A stretch of 64,000 nt of DNA from an uncultured Actinomycetes bacterium (GTDB taxonomy: Bacteria > Actinomycetota > Acidimicrobiia > IMCC26256 > PALSA-610). The notes beneath the pieces were generated by a model. It ran no database searches. It worked only from the letters and a program-made list of their open reading frames with translations, and was not told the DNA's origin. Where the stretch lies: contig CAWASN010000007.1 of NCBI GenBank assembly GCA_963784845.1, positions 1,169,200-1,233,199 on the forward strand, written 5' to 3'. A program made the position numbers and the translations under genes. Positions 55,122 to 58,044 of this stretch are shown here, one piece after another (the stretch's first letter is position 1; each line of letters starts with the position of its first letter).

Positions 55122-57009
55122 TCAGGGTAACGCCACGAAGCCGTCATCGGGCCCGGGTCTCGGCGGCGACGCCGAGGCGTCACGGTGCAATCGGTGGGCG
55201 CGTTCGGGCGGAGGGGACGCCGGTGACGCCGCGGCCAGGGTGGCGCGCAGCTCCGCGAGGTGGTCGCGTGGCTCGAGCCGCCTTTGCAGCAAGCCGTGCG
55301 GGGAGTGGTTCGCAACCTCTTCGATCAGTCCGAGCCAGGGTGACGGCTCGCGCTCGGCCCGCCGGGAGCCCACGGTCCGAGCGCGCGCCCAAGAGCAGTG
55401 CAGCTCGTCCTCCGCGCGGCTCAGGGCCACGTGCAGCAGCCGCCGTTCCTCGGCTCGGGCCGGAGCGGACGTGGCCCAGGAGATCGGCACCATCCCCCGT
55501 TCGAGCCCGGTGACGAACACGACCGACCACTCGAGACCTTTGGCGCGATGGAACGTGACCAGGTCCACGCCGGCCGACTCGGTCGTCGAGCCGTTGGTCG
55601 CGACGTCGAGCCAGGTCGTGAACTCGGCGACACCACCGCTGCCACCGACGGCTTCCAGGTACTCGCGTCCGAGCTCGAGCAGCATCTCGCGATGGGCGCG
55701 CGCCTCGTCGGTCTCGGATTCGGGCGTGCTCACGTCGGACTTGGGGCCCGCGGCGACGTCGGCGAGGTGCTCGGCAAACGGCCGACCCGGGGCGTTGCCC
55801 TCGGTCTCGCGGAGCTCGTCGAGCACTGCGCGGACCTGCGCGCGCGGCGAACCGCTGACCGTCGCCGATTCGGAACGGCACGCCCCGCCGGGTCAACGCG
55901 GCCTCGAACCGGGCCGACTGCGCGTTGGTGCGAAACAGCACTGCCATGCGAGGCCACGGAACCCCGGCGACGTGGTGCTCCCAGCACGCCTCGGCGATCG
56001 CACGCGCTTCCTCGTCGTCGTCGGCGTACGACACGATCGTGGGCGCGGCGCCGTCGGCGCGGACGGCCTCGGGAACCAGGCGGCTCGCACCGGCCGCCGA
56101 CCCGAGCGCGGCCTCGGCGACGGCCACGACCGATGGCGTGCTTCGGTAGTTGCGGGCCAGCACGACCGTCGTGCTTCCGGGAAAGGCGCGCTCGAATCCG
56201 ACGAGGGGAGCGGCGTCGGCGCCGGTGAACCCGTAGATCGCCTGCGCGGGATCGCCCACGACGGTCAGGTCGTCGGCGCCACCGAGCCACGCCCGCAAGA
56301 GCCGGAGCTGCAGCGGCGTCGCGTCCTGGAACTCGTCGACGAAGAAATGCCGGAAGCGCCAACGTTGCCCGGCCGCGAACTCCTCGTCGCGGGCGATGGC
56401 GTCGGCGCAGCGGCTCAGGACGTCGTCGAAGTCGATGAGGCGTCGCCGCCGCTTCTCGGCCTCGTAGCGCGCGTAGAGCGCCGAGACCTCACCGGCTCCG
56501 CGCGGCGGCCTGCGACCGGCCGCCTCGGCGGCGGCCTCGTAGCCTTCGGGAGAGACGAGGCGGGCCTTCGCCCATTCGATCTCGCCGGCGATATCGCTGA
56601 GCGCCACCGCCGGCGCTGCACCCCGCCCGCCCAGGAGGGGCGCGAGGATCCGGGCCTTGCGCTCGATGACCCGAGGTGCTTCGCGGTTGCGTTCCGCTGC
56701 ATGGCGCCGGAGCTGGCCGAGCGCGATCGCGTGGAAGGTTCCCGCCGTGATGCGGCCGTCGATGCCGAGCTTGCCCATCCGCGAGATCAGCTCGCCCGCG
56801 GCCTTGCGGGTAAAGGTGACCGCGAGCACGTGGCGAGCCTCGACGCGATCTTCGCGGCAGTGGTACGCGATCCGGCGGGTCAGCACCCGCGTCTTGCCGG
56901 AACCCGCCGGCGCGATGATCGCGAGCGGCGCGGCTTGCGACGTGACGGCCTCGAGCTGTGTCGGATCGAGGTCGTCCAGCAACGCGTCGCGCACTCTCCG
57001 ACCGTACAT
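55122..57009 (-). CDS. UvrD/PcrA-family helicase (UvrD2-like, no HRDC seen), frameshift ~55840
   Basis: APAGSGKT, VDEFQD, GDPAQAIYGF, NYRS, TFHRAKGLEW, EERRLLHVA. Confidence 0.92.
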
Positions 57010-57095
57010 ACGGCGACGGTACCCATGCGGTGTGACGCCCGCATCGACCACACGCCCGTGTCGGCCACGCGCCGGGCGACCCCGGAGAGGGTCGC

Positions 57096-57342
57096 AAACG
57101 CGGAAAGGCCCCGAGTAGTCTTCGCCGCTTTCGCAGCTCCGATCTCCTCGGGGCCTTCCTCCGGCGACGGATCTTCGGTGGCCCTCGCAGGCTTCCTCCG
57201 ACCGTGCCGGCCGTGTTCCTCGCCGCCGGGTCCCGCCCCGAAGGACGCAACCCCGTGGTTTCGGTCCACGCACCGGTGCGCACGTACGTCCGTTCCGATC
57301 CCGCAAGCAGTCTCGGAGTCCGACGCATCGGCGTCCCGGCAA
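57096..57342 (-). ncRNA. Candidate structured non-coding RNA, ~245 nt, family unknown
   Basis: Consensus-like promoter; successive hairpins capped by CUUG, UUCG, GCGA, GAAA; G-U pairs in minus orientation; long 3' stem; no credible ORF. Confidence 0.7.
57102..57159 (-). terminator. Long 3' stem, terminator-like
   Basis: GGAAGGCCCCGAG...CTCGGGGCCTTTCC followed by GCGTTT; weak U-tract. Confidence 0.55.
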
Positions 57343-57348
57343 GAGCGG

Positions 57349-57377
57349 ACACTACGACTGCGCGCACCGAGCGTCAA
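57349..57377 (-). promoter_or_regulatory. SigA/HrdB-type promoter
   Basis: TTGACG (57377-57372), 17-nt spacer, TAGTGT (57354-57349). Confidence 0.75.
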
Positions 57378-57521
57378 GAAGAATTTCAGCCTTCGCCGGG
57401 ACGTCTCGCGCAACGATGCCCGCGCGGTGCGGGAACGAAGCTCGTCGCGCCCGACGCAGTTCGCGGAGCATTCACACGTCGCGCATCGAGCGGTCGCGCC
57501 GGACGCGGTTAACTGGAAGAC

Positions 57522-58044
57522 ATGGAGATCGAGCTGGTGCGAGGTACGCCTCGACGCAAGCACGTCGAGGCGGTGCTGGTAGGTGATCGGCTGCGAGTGT
57601 CCTTCCCGCGCTGGATGACGATCGACGAAGCCCAGATCACCGCTCAAGAGCTCGCCGAGCGTATGCAGCGCCGAACGGATTCGTCGGCGATCGACATTGC
57701 CGCGCGTGCCCGCAGGCTCGCTCGGGAGCTCGGGCTTCCGCGGCCGCGCTCGCGTGCGCTGGGTCGACAACATGCGCCAGCGCTGGGGCTCCTGCACCCC
57801 CGAGGACGGCACGATCCGGGTGTCGTCGCGGCTCGCCGCGTACCCGTCGTGGGTGCTCGACTACGTGCTCGCGGACGAGCTCGCGGATCTGGTCGTGCCG
57901 CGTCACGGGCCTGAGCACGACGCGCTCGTCGACCGGTTCGACCAAGCCGAGCGGGCCCGGGGCTTCCTCATTGCCATCGACCTCGACCCCAGCGATGGCG
58001 ACGAAGACGTGCCGGTGTTGCTCGCCGGCGACGTGCGTCCCTGA
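57522..58044 (+). CDS. M48/YgjP (DUF45)-like protein with altered metal motif, frameshifted
   Basis: RRKHV, VRWVDNMRQRWGSCTP, IRVSSRL..YPSWVLDYVL-ADELADL. Confidence 0.8.

What the first reader, a model, noticed from the sequence alone, without database searches (positions are those of the whole stretch)
57096..57377. Unrecognised ~245-nt highly structured RNA with its own strong promoter, between uvrD2 and an M48/YgjP gene
Seen on the minus strand: TTGACG-N17-TAGTGT, then a run of hairpins. These are GACGC-cgat-GCGTC; TCCGA-GA-CTG(CUUG)CGG-GA-TCGGA with tandem G.A pairs; CGTGG-ACCGAAA-CCACG with a T-loop-like loop; GGGTT-G-CGTCC(UUCG)GGGCG-G-GACCC; a multibranch domain closed by CCGGCGGC/GTCGCCGG containing GCCT(GCGA)GGGC; and a long 3' stem containing GCTGC(GAAA)GCGGC. 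Four different canonical tetraloops plus strand-specific G-U pairs indicate a folded RNA. uvrD2 has a separate leaderless -10 (TACCGT, 6 nt before ATG 57009), which suggests a free-standing RNA rather than a 5' UTR. It lacks the SRP, RNase P, tmRNA and common riboswitch cores. Inference: it may be an Acidimicrobiia counterpart of RNAP-binding Ms1/6S-type RNAs (similar size; from memory the GGAAGC..GCGAGGGCC..AAGA..CCGGA..GAAGGC segment loosely recalls Ms1), a GGA-rich protein sponge, or a new class.
Basis: partly seen in the sequence, partly recalled or inferred. Interest (0 to 1): 0.85.

Follow-up and report, generated by a model that had tools for sequence, protein, structure and literature searches.

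The report
New structured small RNA of Acidimicrobiia
This is a real, separately transcribed, highly folded small RNA gene of about 240 bases, conserved in an uncultured soil group of Actinobacteria and matching no described RNA family; what it does is still unknown.

Summary
The finding holds. Window 57340..57100 (minus strand) is a free-standing gene for a ~241-nt structured RNA.

- **Structure:** the minus strand folds far better than shuffles (z -4.5); the plus strand does not (z -1.3).
- **Conservation:** it starts at the -35 box and stops just after the 3' hairpin. It is seen in 20/20 genomes of the genus.
- **Fold:** four consecutive hairpin domains. On 22 sequences, 93% of cells pair and 34 of 94 pairs show compensatory changes, against 8-12 in slid controls.
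- **3' hairpin:** nearly invariant across the order and present in variant form elsewhere in Acidimicrobiia and in a few other Actinomycetota.
- **Expression:** contigs from two soil metatranscriptomes lie on 57100-57333. Some carry A-tails at 57100.
- **Known families:** Rfam 15 gives nothing. SRP RNA, RNase P RNA and tmRNA lie elsewhere in these genomes.

It is not a uvrD leader. uvrD has its own leaderless promoter, keeps it in genomes without the RNA, and in some genomes the RNA sits next to other genes.

Three family memberships fail: 6S/Ms1 (wrong architecture and synteny), CsrA sponge (11 of 20 RNA-bearing genomes lack CsrA) and Y RNA.

My best reading is a stable, trans-acting, protein-binding RNA of a new family. 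RNA polymerase is the leading but unproven partner.

The parts
57381..57387 (-). A/T-rich stretch (GAAATTC) just upstream of the -35 box; possibly an UP-like element
   Evidence: An A/T-rich block in this place is seen in the genus alignment and, as gaaattc/gaatttc-like letters, before the -35 of many other loci. Function is inferred.
57372..57377 (-). -35 box TTGACG
   Evidence: TTGAC is invariant in 20 of 20 genus sequences, and alignable sequence begins about here. A TTGAC-N16-19-TAnnnT pattern was found 144-331 nt upstream of the 3' end in 48 of 50 loci by regex. The E. coli-type scan does not flag it.
57349..57354 (-). -10 box TAGTGT (TAnnnT type), 17-nt spacer
   Evidence: The T, the A and the last T are invariant in the genus alignment. 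Same pattern evidence as for the -35 box.
57100..57340 (-). The RNA itself, about 241 nt. The 5' end is predicted at about 57342-57340. The 3' end lies at 57100.
   Evidence: The 5' end is inferred from the position of the -10 box, and metatranscriptome contigs reach 57333. An exact contig covering 57100-57153 carries 25 loose T on the low-coordinate side, which is an A-tail on the minus strand. Composition is G 0.40, C 0.30, A 0.18, U 0.11.
57271..57341 (-). Domain 1: a long hairpin that starts at the 5' end. It is closed by (U)GCCGG/CCGGU(G), has tandem G.A loops, and is capped by CUG-CUUG-CGG.
   Evidence: Mean pair probabilities are 0.9-1.0 over 20 sequences. Cells paired: 94.6%. The sequence is largely invariant in the genus and recognisable in two other genera of the family, G054 and G168, at 105 and 102 bits.
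57213..57270 (-). Domain 2: a hairpin whose base helix shows compensatory changes. Its apical part (57253-57228, GGGUU..UUCG..GACCC) is optional.
   Evidence: The base helix has 5 of 8 pairs with changes on both sides. The 33-column apical hairpin is missing in 8 of 20 genus members.
57161..57210 (-). Domain 3: a hairpin closed by CCGGC/GCCGG, capped by the invariant GCCU-GCGA-GGGC (57192-57181)
   Evidence: Helices 6-8 have 16 of 19 pairs with changes on both sides. The cap is invariant or nearly so.
57102..57159 (-). Domain 4: the 3' hairpin, which is the family's signature. Its core is 57153-57109: CCCCGAG / G.A mismatch / AG:CU / bulged A / UC:GA / a 3x3 purine loop GGA/GAA / the apical stem GCUGC-GAAA-GCGGC (57137-57124). 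The 3' end of the RNA follows 2 nt after the extended stem.
   Evidence: BLAST identity is 79-93% across other families of the order, where the uvrD protein is only about 46-60% identical. In the 34-sequence alignment 9 of the 19 pairs never vary, while the apical pair 36:45 is UA 19, CG 10, UG 5 and pair 28:53 is UA 32, CG 2. The apical stem covaries strongly in 78 sequences. A-tailed contigs end here.
57016..57037 (-). The separate leaderless promoter-like element of the helicase gene: CGTCACACC-N7-TACCGT, then 6 nt, then ATG 57009
   Evidence: A strict regex finds the element in 19 of 34 loci, and variants are visible in most of the others. It is also present before the uvrD orthologue in 4 of 4 genomes of the order that lack the RNA. 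Its likeness to the PafBC/RecA-NDp motif is recalled, not tested.
55180..57009 (-).
   Evidence: Pfam UvrD-helicase scores 171 bits on residues 14-276. The UvrD_C end matches in another frame, 55826..55122.
57522..58044 (+). Divergent YgjP-like (DUF45/M48-type) gene, frameshifted in this assembly
   Evidence: The N-terminal 59 residues are conserved in relatives by tblastn. The Pfam YgjP-like domain scores 50 bits only in a different frame, 57619-58044.

Best explanation
**What is shown.** Window 57340..57100 (minus strand) is a single-copy, free-standing gene for a ~241-nt non-coding RNA of a family not described before.
- It is transcribed from its own conserved sigma-A-type promoter (TTGACG-N17-TAGTGT).
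- It folds into four consecutive hairpin domains.
- It ends 2 nt after a 58-nt 3' hairpin.
- It is present in soil metatranscriptome assemblies.

**What is inferred.**
- Both ends are locked in helices: domain 1 starts at the 5' end and domain 4 closes the 3' end. The apical loops are stable UUCG/GNRA tetraloops. The molecule therefore looks built to be stable and abundant.
- The 5' three domains drift fast between genera and can be shortened. The shortest form is 144 nt, roughly one long 5' hairpin plus domain 4. They look like a scaffold.
- The part under the strongest sequence constraint is domain 4, with its purine-rich internal loop. It is constrained beyond what pairing alone requires. 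I read it as both the terminator/3'-end protector and a recognition module for a conserved protein.

**How it most likely works.** In trans, as a stable RNA that binds or titrates a protein.

**My odds.**
- Real free-standing structured RNA gene: 0.9.
- Acts mainly through protein binding at domain 4: about 0.5.
- The partner is RNA polymerase, filling the 6S/Ms1/CoRP niche with a different architecture: about 0.2.
For: **Strand-specific fold.** z = -4.52 on the minus strand against -1.26 on the plus strand.

**Conservation.**
- 35 of 41 relatives match. That includes 20 of 20 genomes of the genus at full length, 69-86% identity. One of the 20, G015, is unpublished.
- The RNA is single copy in its own genome.
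- Alignable sequence begins at the -35 box and ends at CCGCGU after the hairpin.
- It is not coding: the genus alignment has single-base indels at several places and a 33-column optional hairpin.

**Structure.**
- On the 20-sequence alignment, 91.0% of cells pair against 33-43% in slid controls, and 18 pairs show double changes.
- On the CM-refined 22-sequence alignment, 93.1% of cells pair.
- There, 34 of 94 pairs show double changes against 8-12 in slid controls, and the covariation score is 0.187 against 0.034-0.048.
- 0 of 500 shuffles reach the observed value on any of the five measures.

**3' hairpin.** It is conserved across the order and has compensatory changes in its variable pairs.

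**Promoter.** The promoter pattern is found in 48 of 50 loci, giving RNA lengths of 144-331 nt.

**Expression.** Contigs from two soil metatranscriptome runs, from two studies, lie on 57100-57333.
- Four contigs have no differences: 57126-57205, 57176-57263, 57100-57153 and 57130-57201.
- Three contigs carry poly-T loose ends before 57100, 57105 and 57106, which is an A-tail after the RNA's 3' end.
- Several contigs of 139-257 nt match only domain 4 and then diverge. These are relatives' RNAs in the same samples.

**Independence from uvrD.**
- The helicase has its own leaderless promoter-like element.
- 4 of 4 genomes without the RNA keep that element behind a short spacer.
- In G064 a convergent PAS-EAL gene follows the RNA. 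In G040 an opposite-strand reading frame that I read as EAL-like (not checked with Pfam) lies between the RNA and uvrD. In G046 a PD-(D/E)XK nuclease gene lies between them.
- In another lineage of the phylum the RNA lies between ligD (Prim-Pol) and xdhC.
- Ten flanking genes in other Acidimicrobiia are unrelated to each other.

**No known family.** Rfam gives 0 matches at gathering score in the window, nothing credible at E<=10, and 0 at E<=0.1 on 8 diverse loci. SRP RNA (5/5), RNase P RNA (4/5) and tmRNA (5/5) lie elsewhere in five relatives.
Against: - No experiment here shows any partner or any function.
- The expression evidence comes from assembled contigs of RNA libraries. These cannot rank abundance, cannot formally give ends or strand, and may contain DNA (tool note).
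- The A-tails may come from library preparation.
- The 5' end is predicted, not mapped.
- The structure was derived from these same sequences, and the second alignment was fitted to it, so the share of paired cells is inflated. Domains 1 and 4 vary too little within the family to prove their helices by covariation.
- The invariant blocks in the 78-hairpin alignment are partly circular, because the pattern scan demanded them.
- Distribution is patchy. A match was found in 31 of 151 genomes sampled from the class, with 0 of 35 in a family of 1.1-Mb genomes, so it is not a universal housekeeping RNA. Stricter filters were in force for that search, and a diverged hairpin would be missed.
- A conserved terminator hairpin could in principle be constrained for reasons other than protein binding.
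- For the RNA polymerase idea specifically, there is no open-promoter-like bubble in any domain.
Confidence: 0.55

Rival explanations
1. It is the Acidimicrobiia counterpart of the RNA-polymerase-associating RNAs (6S, Ms1, CoRP). On this reading it is an abundant stable RNA that binds RNAP core or holoenzyme and buffers transcription capacity.
For: - No Rfam 6S match was found in 0 of 31 relatives, while SRP RNA, RNase P RNA and tmRNA are all found. This leaves the niche unfilled.
- The RNA has a strong conserved sigma-A-type promoter, a size of 144-331 nt, structured and protected ends, and is present in metatranscriptome assemblies.
- Published work proposes that each species has one abundant RNAP-associating RNA and that such RNAs are lineage-specific. 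It also reports Ms1 candidates only in orders of the class Actinomycetes (passages read in PMC11077062 and PMC9130861). 'Acidimicrobi' occurs 0 times in the main text of PMC9130861.
- The RNA was not found in the smallest genomes sampled. [quoted passage not shown]
Against: - The defining architecture is missing. The fold is four local hairpins in a row, with pair probabilities near 1 for domains 1 and 4. There is no long hairpin with a central bubble and no 5'-3' closing stem.
- Synteny differs from Ms1, which sits beside a HAD hydrolase and an oxidoreductase.
- There is no Rfam match.
- The 6S control search rings in only 5 of 14 known genomes, so '6S not found' is weak evidence.
- The signature hairpin was not found in most large families of the phylum that were sampled.
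Confidence: 0.2
2. It is a base-pairing regulatory sRNA that acts on mRNAs through a conserved single-stranded seed. Domain 4 would then be only its terminator.
For: It is a free-standing gene with its own promoter and a terminator-like 3' hairpin. Many lineages have a U-rich tail after the hairpin.
Against: - The only part conserved across the order is a closed hairpin, not an open loop or linker.
- The 5' 190 nt drift beyond BLAST detection between genera of one family.
- The apical loops are structural tetraloops. CCGCAAGG occurs in 11 of 29 RNA bodies and CCUUCGGG in 8 of 29.
- The size and degree of folding are unusual for actinobacterial base-pairing sRNAs (general knowledge).
Confidence: 0.12
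3. It is tied to DNA repair. It would be an RNA partner or regulator of the neighbouring UvrD-family helicase, or of the DNA-damage response more generally.
For: - The RNA lies 37-131 nt upstream of the helicase gene, on the same strand, in 34 of the first 35 loci. One of these, L013, is from the unpublished genome G015.
- The same holds within 39-224 nt in 20 of 24 loci from the class search (distances worked out by hand), and within 300 nt in 33 of 80 loci from the pattern scan.
- Other neighbours seen are a PD-(D/E)XK nuclease (G046), LigD Prim-Pol (another lineage of the phylum) and an HhH-GPD glycosylase (L115).
Against: - Gene order is inherited, so the many uvrD-linked loci are few independent events.
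- Where linkage is lost the neighbours are unrelated: amine oxidase, GDPD, O-methyltransferase, a solute-binding protein, a cation-efflux protein, PAS-EAL.
- The RNA's promoter is a housekeeping type, not the damage-type element that stands before uvrD.
- uvrD orthologues exist without the RNA.
Confidence: 0.08
4. It is a cis-acting element of uvrD. It would be a long 5' leader or attenuator whose 3' hairpin gates read-through, or an insulator in front of the helicase gene.
For: It has the same strand and close spacing to uvrD in most loci of the order. The 3' hairpin sits where an attenuator would.
Against: - uvrD has its own leaderless promoter-like element 6 nt before the start codon.
- 4 of 4 RNA-less genomes keep that element behind a short spacer.
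- The RNA gene, with promoter and hairpin intact, exists without a downstream uvrD in G064, in another lineage of the phylum and in many other Acidimicrobiia.
- A-tailed contigs end at 57100.
Confidence: 0.05
5. It is a GGA-rich sponge for CsrA, of the CsrB/RsmZ type, or a Y RNA bound by Ro60.
For: The RNA is purine-rich (G 0.40, A 0.18) with many GGA triplets. Unexpectedly, CsrA genes exist in this order, in 22 of 41 genomes including this one.
Against: - Of the 30 genomes tested for both, 9 have the RNA and CsrA, 11 have the RNA only, 7 have CsrA only, and 3 have neither. Eleven further genomes were not tested for the RNA and were dropped.
- The GGA triplets sit in internal loops and stems, not in apical loops.
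- Ro60/TROVE was found in 1 of 41 genomes.
Confidence: 0.03

Closest known systems
Ms1 RNA (mycobacteria, Streptomyces; binds RNAP core)
   Same: It is actinobacterial. It is a single-gene unit with a conserved sigma-A-like promoter and a terminal hairpin, about 300 nt long, with sequence that drifts fast between genera and short hairpins at the ends (PMC4191392 and PMC9130861, passages read).
   Different: Ms1 is a long hairpin with a central bubble, which is its most conserved part and is needed for RNAP binding. It lies beside a HAD hydrolase and an oxidoreductase. This RNA is four local hairpins, its most conserved part is the 3' hairpin, and it lies beside a UvrD-family helicase. It has no Rfam match.
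6S RNA (RF00013)
   Same: An abundant, stable, structured RNA of similar size with a housekeeping promoter. No 6S RNA was detected in these genomes.
   Different: There is no closing stem, no central bubble and no terminal-stem rod. There is no match to the covariance model.
CoRP RNA of Corynebacterium (binds RNAP)
   Same: It is a precedent for a lineage-restricted RNAP-associating RNA that resembles neither 6S nor Ms1 in sequence (PMC11077062, passages read).
   Different: CoRP is 516 nt, lies between tRNA genes, is cleaved into two fragments, and is confined to one genus.
Orphan structured ncRNA classes found by comparative genomics (raiA motif, OLE, ROOL and similar)
   Same: Strong covariation, stable tetraloops, conserved purine-rich internal loops, a lineage-restricted distribution and no known function.
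   Different: None of their Rfam models matches. Here only one hairpin is conserved widely and the rest is a fast-evolving scaffold.

Membership tests
6S RNA | Match to the Rfam covariance model RF00013 | tested here: not met
   0 matches in the window at gathering score. No 6S row at E<=10 on 56800-57700. 0 of 31 relatives. The control rings in only 5 of 14 known genomes.
6S RNA | Rod-like fold: a closing stem of the 5' and 3' ends, a large central bubble and a terminal stem | tested here: not met
   Averaged pair probabilities and covariation give four consecutive local hairpins. Internal loops are 1-3 nt per side, apart from the optional part of domain 2.
6S RNA | Binds the sigma-70-type holoenzyme and templates pRNA | not testable with these tools
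   Needs biochemistry.
Ms1 RNA | Sequence or CM similarity to known Ms1 | tested here: not met
   No Rfam family of any kind matches at E<=10. Rfam holds an Ms1 model that finds only close relatives of mycobacteria (PMC9130861, passage), so this is a weak test.
Ms1 RNA | Synteny: an intergenic region between an oxidoreductase and a HAD hydrolase (SerB-like) gene | tested here: not met
   The flanks here are a UvrD-family helicase and a YgjP-like gene. Other loci have other neighbours, none a HAD hydrolase among those scanned.
Ms1 RNA | A long hairpin with a conserved central bubble plus two short terminal hairpins | tested here: not met
   No central bubble. The most conserved element is the 3' hairpin.
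Ms1 RNA | Binds RNAP core and accumulates in stationary phase | not testable with these tools
   Needs RIP or pull-down.
CsrB/RsmZ-type CsrA sponge | Many GGA motifs in apical hairpin loops | tested here: not met
   Apical loops are CUUG, UUCG, GCGA and GAAA. The GGA triplets lie in internal loops and stems.
CsrB/RsmZ-type CsrA sponge | Co-occurrence with CsrA | tested here: not met
   11 of 20 RNA-bearing genomes have no CsrA match, and 7 of 10 RNA-less genomes have one.
Y RNA | A Ro60 (TROVE) protein is present in the genome | tested here: not met
   TROVE in 1 of 41 genomes of the order, and not in this one.
cis-regulatory leader or riboswitch of the downstream gene | Part of the same transcript as the regulated ORF and always found with it | tested here: not met
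   There is a separate leaderless promoter-like element. The RNA exists without uvrD and uvrD exists without the RNA. A-tailed contigs end at 57100.
intrinsic terminator (domain 4 only) | A G+C-rich hairpin followed by a U tract | tested here: inconclusive
   The tool's scan finds none in 56900-57650, and here the tail is only UUUCCGCGUUU. Other lineages have U-rich tails after the same hairpin. The RNA's 3' end lies 2 nt past the extended stem.

The most novel reading that the evidence does not exclude
Acidimicrobiia, a large and mostly uncultured class common in soil and water, carry their own class of abundant stable RNA. Its invariant 3' hairpin, with a purine-rich GGA/GAA loop, docks onto a core cellular machine. 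The most excitingly possible partner is RNA polymerase. That would make this a fourth, architecturally unrelated solution to the 6S/Ms1/CoRP function. Alternatively the partner could be the UvrD-type helicase next to which the gene has been kept across an order.
Probability: 0.2. Interest if true: 0.8.

Novelty: new variant of a known kind. Interest (0 to 1): 0.62.

Why it matters
- Structured, conserved, expressed RNAs of 150-330 nt with no family assignment are rare finds, and they have often turned out to be parts of core machinery.
- This one belongs to Acidimicrobiia, a class with few cultured members and, as far as my searches reach, no described small RNAs.
- It is present in metatranscriptome assemblies of soil from two studies.
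- These genomes show no detectable 6S RNA, and Ms1 has not been reported for this class. The RNA is therefore a concrete candidate for the proposal that every bacterium has one abundant RNAP-associating RNA. That proposal can now be tested directly by RIP-seq or pull-down.
- Even if the partner is something else, the signature hairpin gives a simple handle for annotating the gene in hundreds of MAGs, and a defined motif for structural and binding studies.

Tried and rejected
**Rfam.** At gathering score there were 0 hits in the window. At E<=10 there was only noise: Pospi_RY at 22 bits on the wrong strand, BcKCsr2 inside the uvrD start, a snoRNA and ilvB-OMG. Eight diverse loci gave nothing.

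**Protein-coding reading.** An in-frame TTG ORF (57342..55180) runs through the RNA. I rejected it because of the single-base indels and the optional hairpin in the genus alignment.

**Alternative topology.** RNAalifold on the raw MAFFT alignment proposed that the 5' CCGG pairs with the CCGG before domain 4, giving a multibranch closure. CCGG is palindromic and occurs four times. Averaged pair probabilities favour local closure at 0.91-0.96. Covariation cannot decide between the two.

**The full-length model on other families of the order.** It recovers only domain 4 and forces the rest. I therefore make no claim that domains 1-3 are homologous beyond the family.

**Metatranscriptome flanks.** Bins 57338-57800 and 56969-57091 had no cover in either run, and uvrD had depth of about 1 in one run. 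The loose end at 57331 in run X2 reads like a sequencing adapter (recalled), not a 5' end.

**Literature.** Searches for any prior description gave nothing relevant:
- uvrD2 + small RNA
- Acidimicrobiia + structured or noncoding RNA
- Acidimicrobiales + small RNA + metatranscriptome
- Microthrix + sRNA / 6S
- three 10-nt motifs searched anywhere in text

The list of 824 Ms1 candidates in PMC9130861, which includes one unplaced 'Actinobacteria bacterium', could not be checked against this family.

**RecA-NDp.** The consensus is not printed in the passages I read. The likeness of the uvrD element to it is from memory only.

**Repeated boxes.** CTGGGGA / TGTGGAT boxes upstream of the RNA promoter in other lineages were noticed but not analysed.
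Full report
**What is there.**
- Pfam confirms the helicase: UvrD-helicase, 171 bits.
- It also finds the YgjP-like domain, but only in a second reading frame. The end of the helicase likewise matches in a second frame. Both neighbours are therefore frameshifted in this assembly.
- The minus strand of 57096-57350 folds to -140.2 kcal/mol, z = -4.52, with 0 of 200 shuffles as good.
- The plus strand gives z = -1.26, with 27 of 200 shuffles as good.
- Rfam 15 gives no match in the whole window at gathering score and only noise at E<=10 around the site.

**Conservation defines a transcription unit.**
- A BLAST of 57080-57390 against 41 related genomes matched 35 of them.
- All 20 other genomes of the genus match over the full length at 69-86% identity. 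One of them, G015, is unpublished.
- Other families of the order match only the last ~58 nt, at 79-93%.
- The RNA is single copy in its own genome.
- In the 20-sequence genus alignment, alignable sequence starts at an A/T-rich stretch and the invariant TTGAC. It runs through an invariant TA...T and stops at CCGCGU after the 3' hairpin. Both flanks are unalignable.
- The alignment has single-base indels, and a 33-column hairpin is missing in 8 of 20 members. This excludes the in-frame ORF that happens to cross the region.
- A TTGAC-N16-19-TAnnnT pattern lies 144-331 nt upstream of the 3' end in 48 of 50 loci examined.
- The E. coli-type scan flags neither a promoter nor a terminator. The promoter call therefore rests on conservation.

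**Structure.**
- Averaging the pair probabilities of the 20 sequences gives four consecutive hairpin domains.

| Domain | Window coordinates | Note |
|---|---|---|
| D1 | 57341-57271 | starts at the 5' end |
| D2 | 57270-57213 | optional apical part 57253-57228 |
| D3 | 57210-57161 | capped by GCCU-GCGA-GGGC |
| D4 | 57159-57102 | the 3' hairpin |

- On that alignment 91.0% of cells pair against 33-43% when partners are slid, and 18 pairs show changes on both sides.
- A covariance model of the whole RNA realigned 22 sequences, adding two further genera of the family (G054 at 105 bits, G168 at 102 bits).
- On that alignment 93.1% of cells pair, and 34 of 94 pairs show double changes against 8-12 in slid controls.
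- The covariation score is 0.187 against 0.034-0.048, and 0 of 500 shuffles reach the observed value on any measure.
- That alignment is fitted to the model, so the paired share is inflated. The compensatory changes in D2 and D3 are the independent part of the evidence.
These are GACGC/GCGTC, the 'T-loop' hairpin, and CCGGCGGC/GTCGCCGG. The tandem-G.A hairpin, the UUCG hairpin, the GCGA cap and the GAAA-capped 3' stem are kept.

**The signature hairpin.**
- D4 is the only part kept across the order.
- In 34 sequences the blocks CCCCGAG-GAG and CUACUCGGGG never vary. The helicase protein next door is only about 46-60% identical in the same genomes.
- The pairs that do vary keep pairing: UA to CG at 28:53 in 2 sequences and at 36:45 in 10.
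- Its anatomy is a 7-bp stem, a G.A mismatch, AG:CU, a bulged A, UC:GA, a 3x3 purine loop GGA/GAA, and an apical stem with a variable tetraloop.
- Constraint on unpaired and mismatched letters goes beyond what a terminator needs. That is my reason to read it as a recognition site. This step is inference.

**Distribution.**
- A model of the hairpin found it in 24 of 151 genomes sampled from the class. A broader model found it in 31 of 151.
- Most hits fall in the window's own order. There were 0 of 35 in a family of 1.1-Mb genomes and 0 of 17 in another family.
- Across the phylum it was found in 5 other genomes (first model) and 8 other genomes (second model) of 150. One of the 8, G315, is unpublished. 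None was found in most large families sampled.
Of these, 80 were listed.
- Nearly all listed records are titled Acidimicrobiia or Acidimicrobiales, including Iamiaceae, Microthrixaceae, Ca. Aldehydirespirator and Ca. Poriferisocius. I judged seven to be chance matches in coding sequence, for example one in clpP.
- These hits show variant internal sequences with strong covariation in the apical stem. The invariant blocks in that set are partly imposed by the pattern.

**Expression.**
- Two soil metatranscriptome runs from two studies hold parts of the stretch.
- Laid on 56600-57800, their contigs lie on 57100-57333.
- Four contigs have no differences: 57126-57205, 57176-57263, 57100-57153 and 57130-57201.
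- Three contigs carry 25-30 loose T before 57100, 57105 and 57106. That is an A-tail after the 3' end of a minus-strand RNA.
- Several contigs of 139-257 nt match only D4 and then diverge. This is what relatives' copies of the RNA would look like.
- Contigs cannot rank abundance or formally give ends. The A-tails may come from library preparation. The lack of cover on the flanks is not used as evidence.

**Not a uvrD leader.**
- The hairpin lies 37-131 nt upstream of the helicase start in 34 of the first 35 loci and within 39-224 nt in 20 of 24 loci from the class search (distances worked out by hand).
- However, the helicase has its own element directly before the start codon: TGTC/CGTC-RCACC, then N7, then TAnnGT, then 4-7 nt, then the start.
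- A strict regex finds that element in 19 of 34 loci, and variants are visible in most others.
- Four of four genomes of the order without the hairpin keep that element behind a spacer too short for the RNA.
- Conversely the RNA gene is intact where a convergent PAS-EAL gene follows it (G064) and where a PD-(D/E)XK nuclease gene lies between it and uvrD (G046).
- In G040 an opposite-strand frame lies between the RNA and uvrD. I read it as EAL-like but did not check it with Pfam.
- It is also intact between ligD and xdhC in another lineage of the phylum, and next to unrelated genes in other Acidimicrobiia.

**Tests of known kinds.**
- SRP RNA (5/5), RNase P RNA (4/5) and tmRNA (5/5) are found elsewhere in five good relatives.
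- 6S RNA is found in 0 of 31 relatives. The control rings in only 5 of 14 known genomes, so this is weak.
- Ms1 is defined by a long hairpin with a central bubble and by HAD-hydrolase synteny, and has been reported only in orders of the class Actinomycetes (passages of PMC4191392 and PMC9130861). Neither feature is met here.
- CsrA turned out to exist in this order, in 22 of 41 genomes including this one, but it does not track the RNA.
- Of 30 genomes tested for both, 9 have both, 11 have the RNA only, 7 have CsrA only and 3 have neither. Eleven genomes were dropped because they were not tested for the RNA.
- Ro60/TROVE is found in 1 of 41 genomes.

**Reading.**
- Shown: a free-standing, conserved, structured RNA gene of a family absent from Rfam and from the literature I could search, and present in RNA libraries.
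- Inferred: ends locked in helices and tetraloop-rich arms make a stable molecule. CCGCAAGG occurs in 11 of 29 RNA bodies and CCUUCGGG in 8 of 29.
- Inferred: a fast-drifting scaffold carries one strongly constrained hairpin that ends the transcript and is probably bound by a protein.
- RNA polymerase is the leading candidate partner, for two reasons. The 6S/Ms1 niche looks empty in these genomes, and the field now expects lineage-specific RNAP-associating RNAs (PMC11077062, passages read).
- The missing bubble architecture keeps that at about 0.2.

Noticed in passing
window 55122-57009 (-) and 57522-58044 (+): Both genes flanking the RNA are frameshifted in this assembly. The UvrD_C end and the YgjP-like domain each match only in a second reading frame. 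The genome is 8 contigs and 3.7 Mb but only 64% complete by marker genes. That combination fits indel errors of a long-read assembly better than real pseudogenes.
   Followed up: partly
window 57016-57037 (-); same place in L002-L035 and L198-L201: A conserved leaderless promoter-like element stands directly before the UvrD-family gene across the order: (T/C)GTCRCACC-N7-TAnnGT, with the start codon 4-7 nt later. From memory it resembles the PafBC/RecA-NDp damage promoter of Actinobacteria. If so, it would extend that regulon to Acidimicrobiia. The consensus was not available in the passages I read.
   Followed up: partly
G000:C2:83304-83456 and 21 other genomes of the order: CsrA (PF02599, 80-92 bits) is encoded in 22 of 41 genomes of this Acidimicrobiia order. 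This was unexpected for Actinomycetota. Its RNA partners here are unknown, and they are not the RNA of this report.
   Followed up: partly
L021, L074, L083, L085, L093, L139 (100-200 nt upstream of the RNA's -35); also L064-L068 directly abutting the -35: Arrays of 3-6 repeats of CTGGGGA(C/T), with TGTGGAT in L069 and L092, precede the RNA promoter in several other lineages but not in this genus. They look like binding sites for a regulator. A likeness to DnaA boxes is only my impression.
   Followed up: no
L074 4837-4879 and 5355-5397; G062:C1 21633-22240; G115:C12 88806-90268: Some genomes outside the order carry two copies of the signature hairpin 0.5-1.4 kb apart. In L074 and G115 the two copies lie on the same strand, suggesting tandem duplicates of the RNA gene. 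In G062 the two matches lie on opposite strands.
   Followed up: no
window 57457-57477 (-), i.e. 45-65 nt upstream of the YgjP-like start on the plus strand: A motif GTGTGAATGCTCCGCGAACTG recurs at the same relative place in at least 9 of the 20 genus sequences. It may be a promoter or operator of the divergent YgjP-like gene.
   Followed up: no
L064-L068, L102 (another lineage of the phylum): A ~230-nt RNA gene with the same type of 3' hairpin lies between a divergent LigD primase-polymerase gene and a convergent xdhC gene. It is present in 4 of 4 genomes of one genus.
   Followed up: partly
L070, L095, L086 (Ca. Aldehydirespirator and relatives): No promoter was found within 380 nt upstream of the hairpin. 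The upstream sequence holds repeated CCGACGGGGA-type hairpins. The RNA may be much longer in these lineages.
   Followed up: no
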